Source: Candidatus Hydrogenedens sp.
Lineage (GTDB): Bacteria > Hydrogenedentota > Hydrogenedentia > Hydrogenedentales > Hydrogenedentaceae
Length of the DNA: 64,000 nt
NCBI GenBank assembly: GCA_049968235.1
Contig: JBMFRC010000001.1
Span: 32,001 to 96,000, forward strand
Reading direction: 5' to 3'
Position 1 is the first letter of the stretch, and the number at the start of each line of letters is the position of its first letter. Of the stretch, positions 3,680 through 36,311 are shown one piece after another. The notes under the pieces were generated by a model. That model ran no database searches and was not told where the DNA came from. It saw only the letters and a program-made list of their open reading frames with translations. The position numbers and the translations under genes were made by a program.

Positions 3680-6600
3680 TTCTCATAGCCCTGATTTATC
3701 TTTGTTATATATTTTTCAATGGCATGATGTATTTCTGTCTCTAAAACATCACGGACAGAAACCTCTATATCTTTTATATCATATTTTAATTGGTCAATGT
3801 ATACTATAATTAATTTATTATTGACTTTTATTCCCAGATCTTTCATTGCATAATAATAAATCTCTAATTGTTTCCAGTATCGTTGAGCATGATTATCAGC
3901 ATGGGTTCCTGTCTTATAATCAATAATAGTTCCATCGGCAAGTATTGCATCTACAGTTCCTTGAACAAAATAACCTCCTGTTTTCCAGATAAAAGGGGTT
4001 TCCCGCCAGATAGGCGGATTTGCTTTTAAGATAGGATATATAGGATTGTTTATTATTTTACTAAAACACACATCTTTTTCGTTTTTGATTATATCTTCTA
4101 AAATATCCGGGCTAATTATATTCAGAATATATTTTGATAATTGCTCTATGTTTTCTTCGTAAAAATCCCATAGTTGCAATAACTGATGGTAAAATATACC
4201 GCGTTCGGCATGCTCCATACCTAACGATTGTTCATATATTTCATCATTATCTTCATCATAAATATCATCAAAAAGGAAATTCAGTATTTGTGTTACTGAA
4301 ATAGGTTCTGTTTTAAAATGTTGGGGTGTAATCGATATAGGTGGAACTAAATTATATTGCAAAGACTTTATTTCTCTTTTTAAATCTTTTTTCTTAGGCG
4401 AATAATTACTTTCTTCCCTTTCTATAATATAATACAAACCTGTATCCTTTTTTTTATTAAGGGGAAAGCAACTTGCCAGTAATGATAGGCGGGAATTTAT
4501 TTTTTGTTTTTTATAAAATTCTTCGAGATATTTTTTATTTGAAGATAGGATTAAGTAATCGCGGGCACGAGTTAAAGCCACATAAAATAAACGGATATAT
4601 TCCTGATACTCATCATAGGTATTTTGTAACTTTATAATAGTCTCCACAATATTATTTTTTTCATCTTCTTTTTTCTTTGTTTTAATAATTACGCCCATTT
4701 CTTTATGATAATGAACGGCGGTTGATTTTCTGTGTTGCCTTTCTTCGTAGAGCAAAGGCAAAACAACGATGGGATATTCCAGACCTTTTGCCTGATGTAT
4801 TGTGGTTAGAATAACAGCATCTCCTGCTTCTGTTGCAAGGTCTGCCTCTCCTTCCATTATTTTATCGCGGGAGCGTTCTACAAACCTATGGAACTGGTAT
4901 AAACTTACGGGATTGCTTTCTTGATAAGCACGGGCTAATGCTAAAAATTTTTGGAGGTTAGCAATTCGCTGTTCTCCAAACCAATGCCCTAACAAAATGG
5001 ATTCGTAACCTGTTTGAAGAACAATTTCTTGAATAAGTTCGTGGATGGGAAGATGCGTTTTTTTCCGGAAATATTGATATAAGTAACGAACTCTTACATA
5101 AGCACTGTCTTGTGTCAGAGCATCCGGAATATTATTCGTATTTAATAACATATTTCGAAGAGGTAAGTTCATCTGCCAGCGAGTAATCTGTTCATCGGAA
5201 AGTCCGCAGAAAGGTCCCCGTAAGAAAGAAAGCAGGGCTATATCATGATATGGATTTATTAATACCTGAAGGAAATTTAATATGTCTTTTATTTCTGTAA
5301 TTTCAAAAAATCCCCGACTGCTAACGACAAAACAGGGTATGCCTCTGTCTTTTAACGCCTTTTCATATTTATAAATGTAATTTTTCGTGCAAAATAATAA
5401 AGCGAAATCACCATAACATACAGGGCGTAATTTATGCGTCTTTTCATCTACAATCATTAAAGGGTTTTCGTTATGAACTAAGGATTGAATACGCTCTGCA
5501 ATAATTTTAGCCTCAATATCAACATCATCTTCTTTTAATGTTCTTTTATCATCTTCCGAATGGACAGAAAGTAAAAATTCCACACGAGGTTTAGCATAAG
5601 AACTTCGATGTGCTTGCATGGGGATATATGTTTTTTCAACCGCAGACAGGGAATTTGTTTTCTGGAAAAAGGTATTGACAAAATCTAATACTTCCGGAGC
5701 AGACCTAAAATTGTAGTTCAGTGAAAATAGATTATTATCGACAACTGATTGTCGCTGTTCTTGAAAAACTTTTACTTCTGCATTTCGAAATGCATAAATG
5801 GATTGCTTTGCATCACCTACGAAGAAAAAGGAGAGATTGGGATTTGCCGATAACAACAATTGAATTAATTGCACCTGTGTATGGTCTGTATCCTGAAATT
5901 CGTCAATGAAAATATACTTTATTCCCTCAGCAATTTCTTTACATACTTGTGTATGTCTATTCAATAAATCATAGGTTAAATGTATCAAATCATCAAAGTC
6001 CACCACACCTTGCTGGCGTTTATATTGAACCCATTGACGATAGAACTGGTCAAATAAACGAAGTATTCTATATGTAAAAGTCAACGCTTTTTGTGTGGTT
6101 TCATCTTCCGCTTTTAAGTCAACAATCTCTATTCCTATTGTTTTTTTTATATCCTCACGAATTTTCTTTAATTGTTCCTGCAATTCACCACATATATTTC
6201 TATTCTTTATTATCAATCTTGTTTTATTTCCCAATATTGCTTCTTTAATTTGAATAATATGTTCCCGTTGTTTCGCAGTTTGCAATTTTCTCAATTCTGA
6301 GATATAAAAACTACTGAGAGTCTTCATGTTTTTTTCGTCTTCCGGAATTTCTTTATACAATTCCTCTAATTGTGTTATCCATCCATTTACCGTTGTTGAT
6401 TTCACAAAATTTAACAAATATTGCTCATATTTTTCATTTATTCGTTCAATATTTCTATTGATAGATTCTTCAATAGAACATTGATTTACTTCATCCAGCC
6501 ATGGAAGGATATGTAGGGAATTTTGAAAAAGTATTTCTATAATTTTTTGAAAATTTTGTGGTGAAAGTTCTATAACTAGTTCCGGAACTTCCGTATAATT

Positions 6601-12477: not shown

Positions 12478-13146
12478 TTAATGGTATAAATTTTTACCCC
12501 GTTTCTGTGCTATAAAAGTACTGATAATATGTGTAATGATACAGAATACATCTTCAACGGGTCCGTATTCATCTTTCGTACTTGCAACAAGAAGTCCATA
12601 ATCACATAACGAAATCATTCTACCTCCGTCACAACCTGCTATACCTATCGTTTTAATTTCATGCTCCTTTGCCCATTCCACTACCTTTATAACATTGGGA
12701 CTATTCCCACTAACAGACATTGCTATTAATAAATCACCTTCCTTAGCAAAAGCACGCAATTGCCCAATAAATATGTTTTCATAACCTTCATCATTTCCTA
12801 ATGCAGTAATTACCGCCTGGTTATCTGATAAATTTATAGCACGAATAGGCGGACAATTTGTAACATAATTTCCTACGACCAAATCATTAACCCAATGAGA
12901 GAGGACTGAAGAACTACCACCGTTACCCGCAAGAAATAGGGTCTTCCCTTCACTGATTTTATTCCACATTACATCGGCTATTTTTGTTAACACATCTTTA
13001 TTTAAATGCGTAAGAATTTGGCACAAACGTTCACAATACCCATTATAGTAATCAGTAAAACTGGGAGATGATTGAAACAAATTTTTCATGAAATACATAT
13101 AAAATACTCCGTAGATTATTGTTAAAAAGATATTTAATTTTAACAT
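12478..13146 (-). CDS. SIS-domain protein, phosphoheptose isomerase-like (GmhA family)
   Basis: LFLAGNGGSSSVLSHWVNDL… and DLLIAMSVSGNSPNVIKVVEWAKEHEIKTIGIAGCDGG. The true start may be at an internal Met (MKNLFQ…). Confidence 0.7.
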   Translation of the reverse strand: MLKLNIFLTIIYGVFYMYFMKNLFQSSPSFTDYYNGYCERLCQILTHLNKDVLTKIADVMWNKISEGKTLFLAGNGGSSSVLSHWVNDLVVGNYVTNCPPIRAINLSDNQAVITALGNDEGYENIFIGQLRAFAKEGDLLIAMSVSGNSPNVIKVVEWAKEHEIKTIGIAGCDGGRMISLCDYGLLVASTKDEYGPVEDVFCIITHIISTFIAQKRGKNLYH

Positions 13147-13763
13147 GTTAAATCTAAAATACCTACGAATATTGTTATCACATTCCTTAATGCATAAACA
13201 AAAATAAATACAGGAAACAGTATAAGATATGCTAAATACAGGAGCAAATTATCTTTGCCCCGAATATAGCACAAGCATTTATTCCTTCTTTTGCAATTAT
13301 AAGTGGTGCGATTATTTTAATTTATCAGAGTAATACAATTATCCTGCTTTTGATAAATTCAATTTATTAATTAGCACCGGCATTTCTCTCTTTGCTTTTT
13401 ACCACGAATGGTGCGAGATGTAAATAAGCATAAAGTATTTATTATAGCAAATGATTATTCGCCATTACATAGAGATGCACTTGCCATGCAGGCGGGTTTT
13501 TGGAATGTGTTGGTAAAAATCGTTTCTGTCTGGCAGGACTTTCAGCAAGACAATGAGATAATTTTCACCACGGAGGACACGGAGGGACACATAGATATTT
13601 TTTTCTTATCACAGAAAGCACGGAGAACACAGAGAAGGGAACAGAGAATAGGTATGAGTATGGATATATTTATTCTATGATTTATATTCTCCTTTCCTTT
13701 TTTCTCTGTGTTTCTCTGTATTCTCTGGGGTGGAGTATTTTTTTTCTCACCACAGAGAGCACT

Positions 13764-14021
13764 ATCTTTTCTTGTTAATGACTGCATATAATTTGAAGTG
13801 GATATATGAGGAATTAAGGGGGCAAAAGGAGAAGTATGCATAGGTAACCAAAAGATAAAAATACTCACAGAAAATAACAAATAAAATGGGTAAAAGTAGG
13901 GATACAGACTTTTGTATTTTAATTTTTCATCGGGATTTTATCTCATAAAAACATGTATAATTTATACTCTTACCTCTTACCTCTTACCTCTTACCTCTTA
14001 CAAAAATTGTTCAGAGGTCTC
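13764..14021. repeat. ~250-bp repeated intergenic element, copy A; sits in the leader position 3' of cas2
   Basis: Aligns at ~85% identity with 40693-40926 (…tcttgttaatga(c/t)tgcatataatttgaag…ggaattaaggg…gcaaaaggaga…atgcatag…acaga…ttgtattttaattt…attttatctcataaa…aattgttcagaggtctc). Ends 10 nt before the cas2 stop codon. Confidence 0.8.
13967..14001. repeat. Microsatellite (CTCTTAC)x5 inside element copy A
   Basis: Five perfect tandem heptamers. Copy B has unrelated sequence at the corresponding position. Confidence 0.9.
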
Positions 14022-14031
14022 GTGTATTTTT

Positions 14032-14358
14032 TTATACTATAATAAGGTTGGGGTTTGAGATGGGTGTATAGTAGTTTAGTCCGTTTCTGTTGATAATTTT
14101 GATTTTATTTGCATCAGCATGGCAAAGGGGTATGATATGTATAATAAGTTGTCGGTTTTGGTCATTGGGTTGTTCGTTGGAGAGGTAATCACGAATGGTT
14201 TCCTGTAGTTTTTCGATAAGGAGTTCTTTTTCATATTCATCGAGGTCGCCCATGAAAACGGAGAATTGTATGTGCGAAGTTCCTACTTCTTCGAGGAGGT
14301 AGGTTATTTTGTTTCGTAGTTTATCGTTTCCTATGTCGAATAATAGTAGTGTTTGCAT
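14032..14358 (-). CDS. cas2: CRISPR-associated endoribonuclease Cas2
   Basis: MQTLLLFDIGNDKLRNKITYLLEEVGTSHIQFSVFMGDL… fits the canonical Cas2 N-terminal beta1-Asp/alpha1/beta2 pattern. 108 aa. Confidence 0.75.
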   Translation of the reverse strand: MQTLLLFDIGNDKLRNKITYLLEEVGTSHIQFSVFMGDLDEYEKELLIEKLQETIRDYLSNEQPNDQNRQLIIHIIPLCHADANKIKIINRNGLNYYTPISNPNLIIV

Positions 14359-14371
14359 AGGTTGATTTGTG

Positions 14372-15340
14372 TTATAGGTTGTATTTATTTTGTTGATTTA
14401 GGGTTTGTGTTAGTTTTATGGCTGCGAGCAGGATGTGTTTTTGGTAGTTGGTATTGGGGTCTTTGGGGGTAGGTTCATAGAGGCGTTCTATGTAAAGGGA
14501 GGAGAGTTTTTTTGTGTTTCTTTTTCGAGTAATCCGTTTTTCTGGAGTTGTACATTTATTCCTTGTCGTATGTAAGCGAGTAAGGGTGTATCGATGAGGG
14601 GTTGACGGAAAGGTTCGATAAAGAAGACGAGGGACTGTTTGTTGTTCTGTAGGGTGTGCAGAAACCCTGCATATGGGTCGAGTCCGGCGAGGGTTAAGGC
14701 ACGGAAGCATTCGGAGTAGAGGATGCCGTAACCGTAGTTGAGTGCAGAATTGACGGGGTCTTTCGAATGTCGGTGTGTTCTGTGGGTAAAGTTATAATTG
14801 GCTGGGATAAGTTGTTTGAAATATGACCAGTAGATGGATGAGGCGTGTGCTTCGGTGGACATGATTTGTTGTTTTGCGTGGGATATATTTTCAGTGTTGA
14901 TGGATTTTAATTTTTCGATGAGTGGGTAAATAGTATTGTGAAGTGTATCTTCGATTTGGGCTAAGTATGTTTTGTATCGACACAGGAATTAGAATTGGTT
15001 TTCGATTTTTGTTTGTATGTATTTTTTTGGCAATTTGTATGCCTAAGCCGTTCTGGATGGCTGTGTATTGGTTCCATCGGTTCTGGATATGGGGGTGATT
15101 GTATATAGGCTGGATAAAAGTGATGGAGTTCCCGTAGGGCTTACATACGGTTAAGGCGATGTCTTGCTGGCTTGCGAGTGAAAGTGCTTCAGCGGAGATG
15201 GAAAATCCTTGGGTGAAGATGATGATGTGTGAGAGTTTGCTGGATGGGATTGTTTTAAGGGTTTTGTTTTCGCCGATAATTTTGAACATGTTTTTGTGTC
15301 TACCGACACGGATATTCTTTTCAATAAGGATGAGATGCAT
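14372..15340 (-). pseudogene. cas1: cas1 pseudogene (two or more frameshifts)
   Basis: N-terminal fragment 14891-15340 (MHLILIEKNIRVGRHKNMFKIIGE…GFSISAEALSLASQQDIALTV… fits the Cas1 N-domain). Middle fragment 14488-14862 in another frame (…DPVNSALNYGYGILYSECFRALTLAGLDPYAGFLH…SLVFFIEPFRQPLID… fits the Cas1 catalytic core). C-terminal remainder in a third frame. Total span about 323 codons. Confidence 0.7.
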
Positions 15341-15461
15341 GTTAAAGTCCTCCTCTTCATTATTTTTATTACATCTAACCTTAAAAAGTTGTATTATTTG
15401 CTATGTATTTAGTCCCAATCAATTTCGAGTTTGAACCAACCCATAGGAAGGGATGCCTTTG

Positions 15462-16643
15462 TTATTTTTTTTGTGATGTAGTTAATTTATGAGACTTTGG
15501 ATAAGGTATTTGGTCAGAACATCTGTCTCTCTTTGCTTTTCCCCATTTTTTGTCATTTGTATCTCCTTGTGAAAATAGTAATGTTATAGTTTTTGATAAA
15601 GAACCTGTGCCATAACCTAATTGTAAAAATATTTTTTTGCCTCTTTCTATCCTAATATCTTCAGGGATGTCATATTCATTTTTATTTACAGAATTAAAGA
15701 ATTCCAGTTGTTTATCAATTAAAATTTCTGAGTATTTGCGTAAACAATCTTGAAAACTCTGTGTATCGTTAAGAACATTTTTAAGATATTTTATCTATTC
15801 TCCGTTATTATATTTATATTCATCCAACATAAATTTTAATGCTTGTTGGTCTAAATAGAAATCTATAATTATTTCTTTACCTTTAGGAATCAGGCATTCA
15901 GCAAATATATCAAATGGTTTAGTTGAAAATTTGTCTCCATTTTTACTTTTTACTTTTATTTGACATATTCCAAAATTGTCGATAGGAATCTCTTTAGAGT
16001 CTCTGATTACTAAAAATTTAAATAAATCATATTTTGCATCATAATTCGAATTATCTACTTCTAATGTAGTATATTTTTCTATATTTTTATTAAGGAGAAT
16101 ATTATTAATATTATTTGACTCTTTAATTAAACAATTAGTGACTGCATTTCTTATACATCCCTTTATACTTGAACCTGGAATAAAAAATTTCCCAAATGGG
16201 TATTTTATAAAGGAAAGGATTGGAGGAAGAGAAGTAGATTCTTGACATATAGATTTTGACTGAGAATTTTGGGATTGTTTTTTCTCAACTTGTTTCTGTA
16301 TTTTTCTTAGTTCTGGAGGAAGTGCTGTATGTTTAGGCGATATGGACCTTGATTGTTTATTTGTTTTTTCTCCTCTTGTTCCAAAATCAGCATATATAGG
16401 AAGAGAATAGCGAATATATTCAGGGTCGGGACGAAAGGAGGGTTCTTCAATAATCTTTAAATCAGTTTCATAATCTTCGCAATTATCCTGAAAATATTTC
16501 ATGACATCTTTTAGACAGAATAATAGCTGTTTCTCGTCAATGTCAATGTAATATTCAAAATTCTGATATTCTTCGCCATCTGATATATGGATGGGAGTGA
16601 TAGGTGTTAGTTTGAATTTGCCATGTTTCTTTTTATCGTTCAT
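15462..16643 (-). pseudogene. csm5: Type III RAMP, Csm5-like (Cas7 group), interrupted by an in-frame TAG
   Basis: The N-terminus MNDKKKHGKFKLTPITPIHISDGEEYQNFEYY is Csm5-like. RAMP glycine loop IPGSSIKGCIRNAV. ORF stops at TAG 15795-15797. The same frame continues for 110 more codons (IKYLKNVLNDTQSF…ERGKKIFLQLGYGTGSLSKTITLL…) and contains a G-rich motif. AAGGAG lies 8 nt upstream of the ATG. Confidence 0.65.
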
Positions 16644-20256: not shown

Positions 20257-20320
20257 AACTATTAACCTATATTTAAGTTGTTTTATTGTTCATTAAGTAT
20301 CTATTTAAAATCTTACAATG

Positions 20321-20402
20321 TGGGCGAGGCGGGAGTTGAACCCGCACACCTTGCGGTACTGGATCCTAAGTCCAGCGCGTCTGCCAATTCCGCCACTCGC
20401 CC
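20321..20402 (-). tRNA. tRNA-Leu (anticodon TAG), long variable arm, CCA not encoded
   Basis: Reverse complement reads GGGCGAGTGGCGGAATTGGCAGACGCGCTGGACTTAGGATCCAG…GGGTTCAACTCCCGCCTCGCCCA. Anticodon loop CTTAGGA. Class II variable arm. T-arm GGTTCAACTCC. Confidence 0.8.
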
Positions 20403-34153: not shown

Positions 34154-35689
34154 ATGTCCGTAAATAATAACAATACAGAGAATATGGGGCGTACCTTTTC
34201 TGAAAGTAAGGAAGCCTGGTATAAAAGTCCTGCATTACGATTTGTTCTGTTTTTTATAATCGTTGTTGTTAGTTTTTTAACGGCGTATCGTTATTTAATT
34301 CGGACTACATGGAACGACTTCTATCTTTTCACTTTAGCGAGGAATACATGCTGGGTTTTGAATAAGATAGGAGATAATGCGACATTAGAAGGTCTTCCAC
34401 AGAATACACCTCCAGAGGAATGCAGGGCATGGTTATCAGCCTGGGCAAGAGGTGCGAATCAACCGGCACCTGAGGATTATATTAATGTTAGCAAGGGACC
34501 TTTAACTGCATGGGAACAGTGGTCATATCGTGCTCAGAAGACGAGGAAACAAGGTGGACAAACCAAGTTAGGTCCACGAGTTGTATTTGTTTTAAAGGAA
34601 GGTTTGTTACCTAAGATAACCAATCTGGAAGAAAAAATAAGAGAACTAAATCGTAACACAAGTTTATCGGAACCCGAAAAAGCAAGTATATTGGCAAAAT
34701 ATAATACAGAGTTACAAGCATTAAGAGTGCAGTATGCAGAAGCCCAGAAAAATCCTAAAGAGAATCGGCAGATAAGTGGATATATTTTTCCATTCATTAT
34801 TATTTCGGAATGTGGTGCTATAGAAATTATGGCTATATTTTTTGCCGCGGTAATTGCATATCCGACGCTTTTTCGTAAGAAGTTATTGGGGATAGTGGTT
34901 GGAATACCATTAATGTATTTTGTTAATATTTTTCGTTTGACTTTTCTGGCAATTGTAGGGGCATTAAATTCGGGAGGGAAATGGTTTGAATTTTTACATT
35001 ACTATGTCTGGCAGGCAGTATATATTGTTTTCGTGGTAGCAGTATGGCTTGCATGGATTGAATTCGTTGTATATGCAGAAACCAGGGAAGGAATGTCTTT
35101 GCGAGACCGTATATTTCAGATATTCCAGAGGAAAACTTTGCTTCCTCTATTTCAGACTTTGCTTTTCTGCATAAAATTTATTCTTGTAGTGGTTCCGCTG
35201 GTATGTATCTGGTGGGCTTTAATTCCTGTGTATGGGTGGATACTTGTGCAGGTATCCGGCTCTATTTTGAGATTTATAATGGGTGTGCCTATTATGGCAG
35301 GTGGAATCCGACCTTCAGGTTTCTTAAATACTGCTTCTACCATTTATTTTGTTATACAGGGGTATGAATTTGAGAAGACATCGCCCATTGCTTTGTTAAT
35401 CACAAATCTACCTCCTTTTATTTCCCTGATGTTGATTACACGGATACCATGGTTAAGTCGTTTGAAGAAAATGTTATGGGGTGCTGGTATAATCATATTG
35501 GGGCATATCCTGTTTATCGTCATAGTACTTCGTTATCAGGAGGTATTAAAGGCATACAGCGAATTACCTATGGCAGTAATTCAGTTTTACCTTACGATGC
35601 CATTTATGTTATGGATAGCCATGGTATTCCGTGAGCGATTTCTAAATCGTTCTGCTAACGGTCTCTTTTCCAATAAGAAACAGGGATAA
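34154..35689 (+). CDS. Exosortase/archaeosortase-family-like polytopic membrane protein (long form)
   Basis: Central …IIISECGAIEIMAIFF… has a Cys in the exosortase active-site position. Downstream …FVNIFRLTFLAIVG… provides the Arg motif. Many TM helices. The N-terminal ~200 aa hold one TM plus a coiled-coil. The family assignment is tentative. Confidence 0.45.
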   Translation: MSVNNNNTENMGRTFSESKEAWYKSPALRFVLFFIIVVVSFLTAYRYLIRTTWNDFYLFTLARNTCWVLNKIGDNATLEGLPQNTPPEECRAWLSAWARGANQPAPEDYINVSKGPLTAWEQWSYRAQKTRKQGGQTKLGPRVVFVLKEGLLPKITNLEEKIRELNRNTSLSEPEKASILAKYNTELQALRVQYAEAQKNPKENRQISGYIFPFIIISECGAIEIMAIFFAAVIAYPTLFRKKLLGIVVGIPLMYFVNIFRLTFLAIVGALNSGGKWFEFLHYYVWQAVYIVFVVAVWLAWIEFVVYAETREGMSLRDRIFQIFQRKTLLPLFQTLLFCIKFILVVVPLVCIWWALIPVYGWILVQVSGSILRFIMGVPIMAGGIRPSGFLNTASTIYFVIQGYEFEKTSPIALLITNLPPFISLMLITRIPWLSRLKKMLWGAGIIILGHILFIVIVLRYQEVLKAYSELPMAVIQFYLTMPFMLWIAMVFRERFLNRSANGLFSNKKQG

Positions 35690-35797
35690 AATCCCTTACA
35701 TTCGCCTGCTCCAATTAAAGAAATTTGTCTTTTTTGCCGACATAAATAATGTAACTTTATGTTGGAAAAGGAACCCGACGAAAGAAGGAGACTGACA

Positions 35798-36001
35798 ATG
35801 AATACAACATCAATCGCACCGGTCAGCATCGTCGGGGCCGGACTAAGCCAGTTTCGACTGCAGTCTCAATCTGCGGATGGAGTAGGATTGAAGGAGCAAC
35901 CTATGCCTTCTACAGACTTGGGGACAGCGACTCTGGAACTTATACTTCGGACTCTGTCGCTTAATGAGTCGGAGGGGCACGACCTCGATGTGCTGGCTTA
36001 G
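35798..36001 (+). CDS. 68-aa ORF inside a GC-rich island (may instead be part of a structured RNA)
   Basis: AAGGAG 7 nt upstream of the ATG. MNTTSIAPVSIVGAGLSQFRLQSQSADGVGLKEQPMPSTDLGTATLELILRTLSLNESEGHDLDVLA. Local GC is ~50% against a ~36% background. Followed by a terminator. Confidence 0.35.
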   Translation: MNTTSIAPVSIVGAGLSQFRLQSQSADGVGLKEQPMPSTDLGTATLELILRTLSLNESEGHDLDVLA

Positions 36002-36023
36002 CACTCAATCTGTCCTTTTCCGA

Positions 36024-36060
36024 GGGAGGCAGAACAAGGATGTGGATGCCTCCCTTTTTT
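36024..36060 (+). terminator. Rho-independent terminator
   Basis: GGGAGGC-17 nt loop-GCCTCCC followed by T6. Confidence 0.7.
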
Positions 36061-36311
36061 ATTTATAAGATGGATTTATTCTCATTACTTTACAATCTAA
36101 ATATTCATTCACAACTGCACCCGTCCCAAAAATTTCAGCATCTATCTGCGGGACTTTATTCACCCTTTTGGGATGACTAAATAGGGTATTTTTTACTCAC
36201 AATAATTTGTACCCTTTGTAGTTCAAAACTATTTTCGAAATTTTGCACATATTTAAAGTATAATTTAGTGCATATATTATCAATTTTCCCGTAATTTAAA
36301 AAGGATTTTTT

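What the first reader, a model, noticed from the sequence alone, without database searches (positions are those of the whole stretch)
35760..36060. GC-rich (~50%) 300-bp island downstream of the exosortase-like gene: a strong-SD 68-aa ORF or a structured RNA, ending in a clean terminator
Local GC is far above the ~36% background. A canonical AAGGAG-N7-ATG starts a 68-aa ORF (MNTTSIAPVSIVGAGLSQFRL…HDLDVLA) with no recognisable domain, followed by GGGAGGC…GCCTCCC-T6. The 5' part (GGGGCCGGACUAAGCCAGUUUCGACUGCAG) superficially resembles the start of tmRNA, but no tRNA-like 3' end is present. High GC in an AT-rich genome often marks structured RNA or recent acquisition.
Basis: seen in the sequence. 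Interest (0 to 1): 0.5.

Follow-up and report, generated by a model that had tools for sequence, protein, structure and literature searches.

The report
Structured mRNA for small sigma-28 protein
The GC-rich island is a self-contained gene for a 67-residue protein found across the candidate phylum Hydrogenedentota, apparently driven by a flagellar-type (sigma-28) promoter, and its messenger RNA is also conserved as a folded RNA whose loops look like binding sites for the regulator CsrA.

Summary
Window 35760-36060 is the GC-richest stretch of the 64 kb. It has AAGGAG-N7-ATG, a 67-codon ORF (not 68) and a hairpin+T6 terminator.

It is not tmRNA or any Rfam family, and it is not functionally tied to the exosortase-like gene.

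- **Coding.** The ORF belongs to a Hydrogenedentota-wide family of about 124 clusters of 60-77-residue proteins. Selection is frame-specific and the stop codon is conserved. There is a weak but recurrent link to Pfam YjfB_motility.
- **Structured RNA.** "Synonymous" sites change 2-6 times less than in the flanking genes. The UTRs are conserved. A 5'-3' closing helix, a helix enclosing the SD/AUG and a long-range helix recur in genomes of 36-63% GC. Fourteen pairs show compensatory changes.

A sigma-28-type promoter (TAAAG-N14/15-GCCGA) lies 51-57 nt upstream of the ATG in every family locus but one lineage, which has TCCGATAA.

Four A(N)GGA motifs are kept: one in the 5' UTR, the SD, the apical loop of a hairpin that encodes L-K/T/M-E/D-Q, and the terminator loop. 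They fit CsrA-type control. That step is inferred and untested.

Verdict: a new variant of known kinds, of moderate interest.

The parts
35716..35720 (+). -35-like element TAAAG of a sigma-28 (FliA/SigD)-type promoter
   Evidence: This is the only match to TAAAG-N11-15-GCCGA in the 64 kb. The same motif lies 51-57 nt before the ATG in every family locus. The consensus is taken from PMC12784957.
35736..35743 (+). -10-like element GCCGACAT (consensus GCCGATAA), 15 nt after TAAAG; the predicted start of transcription is about 35751
   Evidence: The spacer length is constant (14-15 nt) while the spacer sequence varies across 36-63% GC genomes. The start site is inferred from the -15..-8 position of the element and has not been measured.
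35751..36060 (+). Predicted transcript of about 310 nt (5' UTR, ORF, 3' UTR, terminator)
   Evidence: MFE z-score is -4.39 for 35760-36062 and -3.5 to -6.0 for four distant homologues. G-U pairs mark the + strand as the folded strand.
35764..35772 (+). P1 5' strand GGAAAAGGA, containing the first A(N)GGA motif (GGA-1)
   Evidence: It pairs with 36013-36021. One P1 pair changes on both sides within the clade (G-C to A-U, 2 of 10 sequences). In distant loci the two strands differ in sequence but still pair with each other in that locus.
35774..35780 (+). P2 5' strand CCCGACG
   Evidence: It pairs with 35830-35836. It is 100% paired in 15 sequences, and the only changes give G-U.
35785..35790 (+). 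Shine-Dalgarno AAGGAG, the second A(N)GGA motif, 7 nt before the ATG
   Evidence: AGGAG and ATG are invariant in all 15 aligned sequences.
35798..36001 (+). ORF of 67 residues: MNTTSIAPVSIVGAGLSQFRLQSQSADGVGLKEQPMPSTDLGTATLELILRTLSLNESEGHDLDVLA
   Evidence: The profile search found 27 representative proteins at E<=0.001, and the wider search found 121 proteins, almost all 59-80 aa, all Hydrogenedentota where named. Frame-1 pN/pS is 0.51-0.60 against 0.88-1.5 in the other frames.
35830..35836 (+). P2 3' strand CGTCGGG (codons of I-V-G in the VGAG motif)
   Evidence: GGG (Gly13) and GCC (Ala14) are invariant at the third codon position in all 15 sequences, and Val12 is GTC in 14 and GTT in 1.
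35843..35851 (+). P3 5' strand CTAAGCCAG (codons L-S-Q)
   Evidence: It pairs with 35993-36001. It is 92.6% paired across 15 sequences against 21-42% in slid controls.
35864..35923 (+). P4 hairpin covering the variable middle of the protein. Its apex is TTG-AAGGAG-CAA (35888-35899) and its hexaloop AAGGAG (35891-35896) is the third A(N)GGA motif, encoding L-K-E-Q
   Evidence: The apical 3 bp plus an A(N)GGA(N) loop occur in 16 of 16 sequences. A lower stem folds in each lineage from a different sequence. Four pairs show compensatory changes within the clade.
35926..35961 (+). P5 hairpin (codons of the predicted amphipathic helix ATLELILRTLS)
   Evidence: two compensatory pairs within the clade. 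It is not conserved at the nucleotide level in distant lineages, where the same residues are kept with different codons.
35968..35983 (+). P6 small hairpin GTCG...CGAC
   Evidence: It is invariant within the clade, so there is no covariation evidence.
35993..36001 (+). P3 3' strand CTGGCTTAG, including the stop codon
   Evidence: All 124 aligned family proteins end at the same aligned column; the last residue is Ala in at least 90% and invariant in the 31-sequence alignment. UAG and UAA both occur.
36013..36021 (+). P1 3' strand TCCTTTTCC, a CU-rich anti-SD-like element in the 3' UTR
   Evidence: It can pair with either the GGA-1 region or the SD region.
36022..36060 (+). Intrinsic terminator hairpin plus T6. 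Its loop ACAAGGATGT (36034-36043) is the fourth A(N)GGA motif
   Evidence: Four to six stem pairs have compensatory changes. The loop is A(N)GGA(N) in all 15 sequences. It matches the CsrA SELEX consensus RUACARGGAUGU quoted in PMC7652899.

Best explanation
This is an independent transcription unit of about 310 nt, and I describe it in five steps.

1. A sigma-28 (FliA/SigD)-family promoter drives it. This is inferred from a conserved motif.
2. It encodes a 67-residue, mostly disordered protein with one amphipathic helix and an invariant C-terminal GHDLDVLA. The protein belongs to a family that spans the phylum Hydrogenedentota and is probably a remote branch of the YjfB 'putative motility protein' family. 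Coding and family membership are shown. The YjfB homology is suggestive only.
3. The mRNA is under selection as a folded RNA (shown). P1 pairs the 5' UTR with a CU-rich 3' UTR segment. P2 encloses the SD and AUG. P3 pairs codons 16-18 with the stop-codon region. P4 is a hairpin whose stem is free to change in sequence, which makes that part of the protein variable.
4. Four A(N)GGA motifs are kept at fixed places: the 5' UTR, the SD, the P4 hexaloop and the terminator loop.
5. The most likely mechanism is post-transcriptional control by a CsrA/RsmA-type protein. It would bind the SD and the 5' UTR site to repress translation, and the two loop sites would add affinity or let the abundant late-class mRNA titrate CsrA. 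This is analogous to CsrA control of the sigma-28-dependent flagellin mRNAs. This step is inferred only; I give it about 0.35. The stated confidence of 0.6 covers steps 1-4.

The GC-rich island arises because an AT-rich genome has to keep the G/C-rich helices.
For: **Coding**
- The profile search found 27 representative proteins at E<=0.001, all but one 62-77 aa and most matched nearly end to end. The wider search found 121 proteins.
- The alignment contains indels and the motifs VGAGxSQ, LK[DE]Q, AALxLI and GHDLDVLA.
- Frame-1 pN/pS is 0.51 within the clade and 0.60 between lineages, against 0.88-1.5 in the other frames. In the helix region the Leu/Ile codons differ while the residues are kept (pS 0.80, pN 0.39).

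**RNA-level constraint**
- pS in the ORF is 0.07-0.36. For the same genome pairs it is 0.43-0.76 in the exosortase-like gene and 0.38-0.66 in PPDK.
- Variable sites by codon position are 21/19/29.
- The UTR blocks are invariant.
- In the clade alignment, 87 pairs are 97% paired. Fourteen pairs have compensatory changes, against 2-3 in slid controls and 0 of 500 shuffles reaching that number.
- Across 36-63% GC genomes, P2 is 100% paired and P3 92.6% paired.
- MFE z-scores are -3.5 to -6.0 in five lineages, with the same architecture.

**Promoter**
- TAAAG-N14/15-GCCGA lies 51-57 nt before the ATG in every family locus. One lineage has TCCGATAA instead.
- There are only 4 other matches in about 590 kb of loci, and this is the sole match in the window.
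- The consensus comes from PMC12784957.

**A(N)GGA sites**
- The P4 apical hexaloop is present in 16 of 16 sequences.
- The terminator loop is present in 15 of 15.
- The K/T/M and E/D variation in the protein motif always preserves A-N-G-G-A.
- The CsrA site definition comes from PMC7652899.

**YjfB link**
- PF14070 is the most frequent Pfam hit among family members (8 of 124, best E 2.2e-5).
- YjfB is described as an uncharacterised small protein linked to sigma-28.
Against: - No csrA, fliW, fliA or flagellin gene could be looked for in these genomes. None is present in the 590 kb held.
- The overall GGA count is not clearly enriched over dinucleotide shuffles (p 0.01-0.6). A(N)GGA is only moderately enriched.
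- Most of P2 and P3 is invariant rather than covarying, and it overlaps conserved residues, so part of that conservation could be protein-driven.
- The gene neighbours are not flagellar.
- Sigma-28-family factors also serve non-flagellar programmes in some bacteria (from general knowledge).
- The window protein itself does not hit PF14070.
- The AlphaFold model is of low confidence (pLDDT 59.5).
- Only 15-16 distinct DNA sequences were available, 10-11 of them from one clade.
Confidence: 0.6

Rival explanations
1. The structured mRNA is real, but the structure serves something other than CsrA. It could stabilise the mRNA through 5'-3' end pairing. It could act as a switch in which the 3' CU-rich element alternately masks the SD or the upstream GGA-1 region. 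It could be autoregulated by the encoded protein or by another RNA-binding protein.
For: - The 3' CU-rich element can pair with either the GGA-1 region or the SD with comparable energy in several lineages. In L071, where GGA-1 is absent, it can pair only with the SD.
- P1 closes the 5' and 3' ends of the transcript.
- The GGA count is not strongly enriched.
- No CsrA was found in the held sequence.
Against: - Two hairpins keep an A(N)GGA(N) apical loop while their stems change. Stability alone does not explain that.
- The window's terminator loop matches the CsrA SELEX consensus at 11 of 12 positions.
Confidence: 0.25
2. This is an ordinary small protein gene. The nucleotide conservation would reflect codon bias, recent horizontal spread or short divergence times, not a functional RNA structure.
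For: - The ORF, SD and terminator have a textbook gene layout.
- The family is conserved at the protein level.
Against: - Flanking genes in the same genome pairs are near saturation at synonymous sites (pS 0.6-0.75), while the ORF shows 0.15-0.36.
- Variable and invariant blocks alternate, which is unlike a recent sweep.
- The non-coding 5' and 3' UTR blocks are as conserved as the ORF and are complementary to each other and to ORF segments.
- Compensatory changes exceed the controls.
- ORF GC3 is 0.53 against 0.29-0.34 locally, which runs against the local codon bias.
Confidence: 0.08
3. This is a non-coding regulatory RNA, for example a CsrA sponge. The ORF would be incidental, and the 'protein motifs' would be by-products of conserved helices and loops.
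For: Most conserved residue motifs coincide with RNA elements: VGAG with the P2 3' strand, SQ with the P3 5' strand, LKEQ with the P4 apex, and DLDVLA plus the stop codon with P6, P3b and P3. Codon-position periodicity within the clade is weak (21/19/29).
Against: - pN/pS is frame-specific.
- Leu and Ile residues of the helix are conserved with different codons where the RNA sequence is not conserved.
- AGGAG and the ATG are invariant, with similar spacing between them.
- All 124 aligned family proteins end at the same aligned position.
Confidence: 0.06
4. This is a partner or substrate of the adjacent exosortase-like protein, or a tmRNA-like or other housekeeping RNA.
For: The gene is adjacent to the exosortase-like gene in all 12 close variants. 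GGGGCCGGACUAAGCCAGUUUCGAC superficially resembles a tmRNA 5' end.
Against: - There is no PEP-CTERM-like tail or C-terminal transmembrane segment.
- The gene is absent next to the exosortase homologue in L021 (76% identity) and L022/L023 (65%) and in all 39 more distant loci.
- No exosortase homologue lies within 6 kb of the distant family members.
- ARAGORN and Rfam are negative.
Confidence: 0.01

Closest known systems
YjfB family of small 'putative motility proteins' (Pfam PF14070 YjfB_motility)
   Same: The size is similar (about 55-70 residues). It is associated with sigma-28: the literature describes YjfB as an uncharacterised small protein in a sigma-28 gene sub-module, and this family has a sigma-28-type promoter. 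PF14070 is the top recurring Pfam hit among family members (8 of 124, best E 2.2e-5). From memory, and not tested here, YjfB proteins also end in a G-x-x-[LI]-D-[VI]-x-A-like motif.
   Different: The window protein and most family members do not reach the Pfam model. The family appears restricted to Hydrogenedentota. Nothing comparable to the conserved mRNA structure is known to me for yjfB.
CsrA-controlled, sigma-28-dependent flagellin mRNAs (Bacillus subtilis hag; Campylobacter jejuni flaA, a 'dual-function' mRNA)
   Same: It has a late-class sigma-28-type promoter and a 5' UTR with two GGA motifs, one overlapping the SD. It is an abundant mRNA that could both be repressed by CsrA and titrate it (PMC7652899, PMC4894983).
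   Different: The product is a 67-residue protein, not flagellin. There are extra A(N)GGA loops inside the ORF and in the terminator, plus helices that span the whole transcript. CsrA and FliW have not been shown in these genomes.
Csr/Rsm sponge sRNAs (CsrB, CsrC, RsmY, RsmZ)
   Same: It is a short, independently transcribed, highly structured RNA with A(N)GGA(N) loops on hairpins and an intrinsic terminator.
   Different: It has only about four sites. It contains a conserved, selected ORF. It matches no Rfam Csr/Rsm model, even at E<=10.
Dual-function (coding and structured) bacterial RNAs such as SgrS/SgrT, RNAIII/hld and SR1/SR1P
   Same: It is a small ORF embedded in an RNA whose structure is itself under selection.
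   Different: Here the ORF spans about two thirds of the transcript, and its conserved residues are co-encoded with the helices. No base-pairing target is proposed.
tmRNA
   Same: Only a short 5' string resembles it: GGGGC..GA....UUCGAC.
   Different: It has no acceptor 3' strand, no T-arm, no ARAGORN call and no Rfam hit. The GGGG is the 3' strand of helix P2.

Membership tests
tmRNA | tRNA-like domain (acceptor stem closed by the 5' and 3' ends, and a T-arm), detectable by ARAGORN or the Rfam tmRNA models | tested here: not met
   ARAGORN finds only tRNA-Leu at 20320-20402. Rfam at gathering thresholds and at E<=10 gives no tmRNA hit.
Any curated Rfam RNA family (including CsrB/CsrC/RsmX/Y/Z, 6S, SRP and RNase P) | Covariance-model match at or near the gathering score | tested here: not met
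   Four chance-level matches in 35600-36300 (E 3-9.5, 10-21 bits against cutoffs of 39-80).
YjfB_motility (PF14070) | Match to the Pfam HMM at the gathering score (27 bits) | tested here: inconclusive
   The window protein has no hit at E<=10. Eight of 124 family members hit it, with best E 2.2e-5. One inspected hit scores 15.4 bits over profile positions 7-49 of 57. A profile-profile comparison could not be run because no YjfB sequences were available.
YjfB_motility (PF14070) | Small size (about 55-70 residues) and association with sigma-28/SigD | tested here: met
   Almost all family members are 59-80 residues. A sigma-28-type promoter motif lies upstream in all loci examined. The association rests on sequence motifs only.
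Sigma-28 (FliA/SigD)-dependent promoter | -35 TAAAG and -10 GCCGATAA separated by about 14-15 nt, at a fixed distance from the gene | tested here: met
   The window has TAAAG-N15-GCCGACAT (6 of 8 in the -10 element). The other lineages have GCCGAAAA, GCCGAAGA and TCCGATAA. The motif always ends 51-57 nt before the ATG.
Sigma-28 (FliA/SigD)-dependent promoter | Transcription that depends on a sigma-28-family factor encoded in the genome | not testable with these tools
   No whole-genome search was possible. A partial E. coli FliA query found nothing in the 590 kb held.
CsrA/RsmA-regulated RNA | GGA motifs, typically A(N)GGA in hairpin loops, with one overlapping the SD | tested here: met
   Four conserved sites are present: GGA-1, the SD, the P4 apical hexaloop in 16 of 16 sequences, and the terminator loop in 15 of 15. 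Count enrichment is only weak.
CsrA/RsmA-regulated RNA | CsrA encoded in the genome and binding the RNA | not testable with these tools
No literature links Hydrogenedentota and CsrA.
Exosortase substrate (PEP-CTERM-type sorting signal) or dedicated partner | C-terminal sorting motif plus a transmembrane helix and a basic tail; co-occurrence with the exosortase gene across genomes | tested here: not met
   The protein ends in ...ESEGHDLDVLA, with no hydrophobic tail. The two genes are adjacent only in the Ca. Hydrogenedens clade.
Intrinsic (Rho-independent) terminator | G+C-rich hairpin followed by a U tract | tested here: met
   The stem is about 10 bp (-20.6 kcal/mol for the region) and is followed by T6. 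Stem pairs carry compensatory changes. The simple consensus scan missed it because of its long loop. In distant lineages the U tract is interrupted.

The most novel reading that the evidence does not exclude
The transcript is a true dual-function RNA. It would be a late, sigma-28-driven mRNA whose four A(N)GGA sites and end-to-end fold make it a CsrA-titrating regulator as well as the template for a YjfB-like protein. Protein and RNA would have co-evolved so tightly across a whole candidate phylum that most conserved residues (VGAG, SQ, L-K/T/M-E/D-Q, DLDVLA plus the stop codon) are dictated jointly by helices, loops and peptide function. This would be an RNA antagonist of CsrA outside the Proteobacteria.
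Probability: 0.2. Interest if true: 0.7.

Novelty: new variant of a known kind. Interest (0 to 1): 0.5.

Why it matters
If the reading holds, it matters in four ways.
- It gives an annotation and a regulatory context (a sigma-28 regulon) to a family of about 120 'hypothetical' small proteins in an uncultured phylum.
- It gives a clean natural example of a gene under simultaneous protein-level and RNA-structure selection. One protein motif, L-K/T/M-E/D-Q, appears to be shaped by an RNA hairpin loop.
- It offers a testable candidate for CsrA-type control, or CsrA titration, by an mRNA outside the well-studied phyla.
- It is a practical warning for genome scans: a GC-rich island in an AT-rich genome can mark a structured mRNA rather than a non-coding RNA or foreign DNA.

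Tried and rejected
**Searches that found nothing**
- Rfam over the whole window at gathering thresholds and over the local region at E<=10 gave only a tRNA and chance hits.
- ARAGORN found no tmRNA.
- Pfam and NCBIfam gave nothing for the 67- and 80-aa readings.
- nhmmer with the element profile found nothing beyond the close clade in the 43 exosortase-homologue loci.
- A PDB profile search gave only a designed coiled coil.
- tblastn for CsrA, the flagellin N-domain and FliA in the 590 kb held was negative, which says little.
- Literature searches for YjfB function, PF14070 and Hydrogenedentota with CsrA or motility gave only context.

**Searches and analyses that gave too little**
- The metagenome scan with back-translated peptide motifs returned only six close relatives.
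- AlphaFold2 with 124 sequences gave pLDDT 59.5 and a single helix. That was too poor for a fold search, so none was run.
- Two further Pfam batches, meant to locate the members that hit YjfB, found only one weak hit.
- GGA count enrichment against dinucleotide shuffles was weak.
- An ungapped alignment of P4 across lineages recovered only the apical 3 bp, because the lower stems are in different registers.

**Ideas rejected**
- Exosortase partnership.
- A tmRNA-like RNA.
- Recent horizontal acquisition.
- The 80-aa start at 35759.
Full report
**1. The observation**

The stretch 35760-36060 is as described.
- Local GC reaches 0.535-0.55 in 200-nt windows and 0.52 over 300 nt, against a window mean of 0.369. 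It is the GC-richest stretch of the whole 64 kb (z about 3.2).
- AAGGAG (35785-35790) lies 7 nt before ATG 35798. The ORF runs to TAG 35999-36001 and encodes 67 residues, not 68.
- GGGAGGC...GCCTCCC followed by T6 (36024-36060) is a good intrinsic terminator.
- The upstream 511-aa gene (34154-35689) carries the exosortase/archaeosortase signature TIGR04178 (55.7 bits, cutoff 23). It reaches no named Xrt subfamily cutoff.

**2. What it is not**

- Rfam finds nothing here, either at gathering thresholds or at E<=10.
- ARAGORN finds no tmRNA.
- The tmRNA-like string GGGGCCGGACUAAGCC... is the 3' strand of one helix plus the 5' strand of another (see section 5).

**3. The organism, and the link to the exosortase-like gene**

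Close relatives of the ORF and of the exosortase-like gene come from Candidatus Hydrogenedens, including Ca. H. terephthalaticus, and other Hydrogenedentota.
- In 12 distinct close variants the order PPDK(-) / exosortase-like(+) / small ORF(+) is kept, while the gene downstream differs.
- The adjacency stops there. A 76%-identical exosortase homologue (L021) and two 65%-identical ones (L022, L023, where gatC follows directly) lack the element. None of 39 more distant exosortase loci has it within 4 kb.
- Conversely, five distant members of the small-protein family have no exosortase homologue within 6 kb.
- The peptide has no PEP-CTERM-like tail.

The neighbourhood is therefore local synteny, not a functional pairing.

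**4. The ORF is a real gene**

- A profile of the eight close proteins, searched against 1.84 billion representatives, found 27 proteins at E<=0.001. All but one are 62-77 aa, and most are matched nearly end to end.
- A second search found 121 proteins, almost all 59-80 aa. Every one that carries an organism name is from Hydrogenedentes/Hydrogenedentota, apart from one MAG labelled Nitrospiraceae.
- The alignment has indels and the motifs VGAGxSQ, LK[DE]Q, AALxLI and a C-terminal GHDLDVLA. All 124 sequences end at the same aligned position.
- Between six divergent lineages, pN/pS is 0.60 in the ORF frame against 1.01 and 1.51 in the other two frames.
- In the predicted helix (residues 42-56), Leu and Ile are kept while their codons differ (CTG/CTA/TTG, CTT/TTG/CTC, and so on). 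There pS is 0.80 and pN 0.39.
- Within the close clade the frame effect is the same: 0.51 against 0.88 and 1.21.
- AlphaFold2 gives a low-confidence model (pLDDT 59.5) with one helix at residues 41-55 and the rest unstructured.
- No Pfam or NCBIfam model matches the window protein. Among 124 family members, however, the most frequent Pfam hit is PF14070 YjfB_motility (8 members, best E 2.2e-5).
- A recent paper describes YjfB as an uncharacterised small protein in a gene sub-module with sigma-28.

I regard remote YjfB homology as likely but not established.

**5. The mRNA is also a selected structure**

*Conservation beyond coding*
- For the same genome pairs, the proportion of synonymous differences is 0.43-0.76 in the exosortase-like gene and 0.38-0.66 in PPDK. 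In the small ORF it is only 0.07-0.36.
- Variable sites are nearly even over the codon positions (21/19/29).
- Invariant blocks of 20-30 nt alternate with highly variable blocks.
- The 5' UTR (GAAAAGGAACCCGACG...AAGGAGAC) and the 3' UTR (UCCUUUUCC) are as conserved as the ORF.

*Helices predicted by RNAalifold on ten clade sequences*
- P1: GGAAAAGGA pairs with UCCUUUUCC and closes the 5' and 3' ends.
- P2: CCCGACG pairs with CGUCGGG and encloses the SD and AUG.
- P3: CUAAGCCAG pairs with CUGGCUUAG, which includes the stop codon.
- Hairpins P4, P5 and P6, and the terminator.

*Support for those helices*
- On that clade alignment 97% of cells are paired. Fourteen pairs show compensatory changes, against 2-3 when partners are slid, and 0 of 500 shuffles reach that number.
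- The many G-U pairs mark the + strand as the folded strand.
- Five distant homologues from genomes of 50-63% GC keep the same nucleotides and helices.
- Across 15 sequences P2 is 100% paired, and its only two changes give G-U. P3 is 92.6% paired, against 21-42% in slid controls.
- P1 is remade with different sequences in the distant lineages.
- The window and four distant transcripts all fold far better than dinucleotide shuffles (z = -4.39, -3.50, -5.49, -3.70 and -5.97), with the same architecture.
- Gly13 (GGG), Ala14 (GCC), Asp62 (GAC) and Leu63 (CTC) keep the same codon in all 15 sequences regardless of genome GC.

This explains the island: ORF GC3 is 0.53 where the neighbours have 0.29-0.34. 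An AT-rich genome is holding on to G/C-rich helices.

**6. A promoter that points to the sigma-28 regulon**

- TAAAG-N14/15-GCCGA(A/C)A lies 51-57 nt upstream of the ATG in every family locus. The spacer varies in sequence but not in length. One lineage has TCCGATAA.
- This is the only match in the 64-kb window, and there are only four other matches in about 590 kb of loci.
- It fits the sigma-28 elements -35 TCTAAAG and -10 GCCGATAA (PMC12784957).
- The inferred start of transcription is near 35751.
- This fits the YjfB lead. Flagellin genes have been reported in Ca. Hydrogenedentes.

I could not check fliA or flagellar genes in these genomes, and sigma-28-family factors are not strictly flagellar.

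**7. Four conserved A(N)GGA sites**

- There is one site in the 5' UTR (GGA-1, inside P1) and one at the SD.
- The apex of P4 is (C/U)UG-A(N)GGA(N)-CA(G/A) in 16 of 16 sequences. Each lineage also folds a lower stem there from a different sequence.
- This apex is exactly the protein motif L-K/T/M-E/D-Q. The otherwise odd K/T/M variation (AAG/ACG/AUG) always preserves A-N-G-G-A.
- The variable middle of the protein is the P4 stem.
- The terminator loop is A(N)GGA(N) in 15 of 15 sequences. In the window it reads ACAAGGAUGU, against the CsrA SELEX consensus RUACARGGAUGU with GGA in a hairpin loop.
- The CU-rich 3' element can pair either with GGA-1 or with the SD.

**8. Mechanism and its limits**

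The pattern resembles CsrA control of the sigma-28-dependent flagellin mRNAs, including the 'dual-function' flaA mRNA of C. jejuni. I therefore propose CsrA-type repression, and possibly CsrA titration.

This is inference, for three reasons.
- The overall GGA count is not clearly enriched.
- CsrA was not found in the held sequence.
- No binding data exist.

A CsrA-independent role for the fold, such as mRNA stability or a 3' anti-SD switch, is the main rival.

**9. Verdict**

This is a conserved small-protein gene, YjfB-like, with a sigma-28-type promoter, and its transcript is a conserved structured RNA. It is not tmRNA, not an exosortase partner and not foreign DNA. It is a new variant of known kinds. 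Interest is moderate (0.5), and would be higher if the dual-function CsrA reading is confirmed.

Noticed in passing
window 14032-16643 (- strand): There is a CRISPR-Cas remnant or locus here: cas2 (14032-14358); cas1 split into two ORFs (14488-14862 matching Cas1 profile positions 152-254, and 14891-15340 matching 2-109), which suggests a frameshift or a pseudogene; and a RAMP protein (15795-16643). No repeat array was seen in 13100-14100.
   Followed up: partly
window 34154-35689 (+); loci L017-L059: The 511-aa exosortase-like protein belongs to a Hydrogenedentota-restricted family of about 480-540 aa. It has a long N-terminal extension and extra C-terminal transmembrane segments. It passes only the generic exosortase/archaeosortase signature and falls below the XrtH, XrtX and ArtB cutoffs. 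Shorter homologues of about 305 aa also exist. It may be an undescribed exosortase subfamily.
   Followed up: partly
L066 4440-8150; L071 4425-8103; L068 6463-9876; L069 4538-5812: In distant lineages the small gene sits between two conserved genes. Upstream is a conserved secreted protein of about 425 aa (3 of 5 loci, 61-69% identical, with a weak ceramidase-like hit). Downstream is a conserved polytopic membrane protein of about 570 aa with no Pfam hit (3 of 5 loci, duplicated in L068). In L068 a second sigma-28-like motif (6360-6381) precedes that membrane-protein gene.
   Followed up: partly
window 35759-36001 (+): Some public records call this gene as an 80-aa protein starting at the upstream ATG (for example P0002). 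That start has no SD and is not conserved in other variants. The 67-aa start at 35798 is the conserved one.
   Followed up: yes
loci L020, L022, L026-L028, L038, L048, L054: Several MAG records that carry these Hydrogenedentota-type genes are titled 'uncultured Nitrospirales/Nitrospiraceae bacterium'. Their gene content and similarity place them with Hydrogenedentota, so the record titles look mislabelled.
   Followed up: no
window 35682-35696: A short palindrome, AGGGATTTTATCCCT, overlaps the stop codon of the exosortase-like gene. The scan flagged it as terminator-like on the - strand. It might terminate or insulate the upstream gene from the sigma-28 unit.
   Followed up: no
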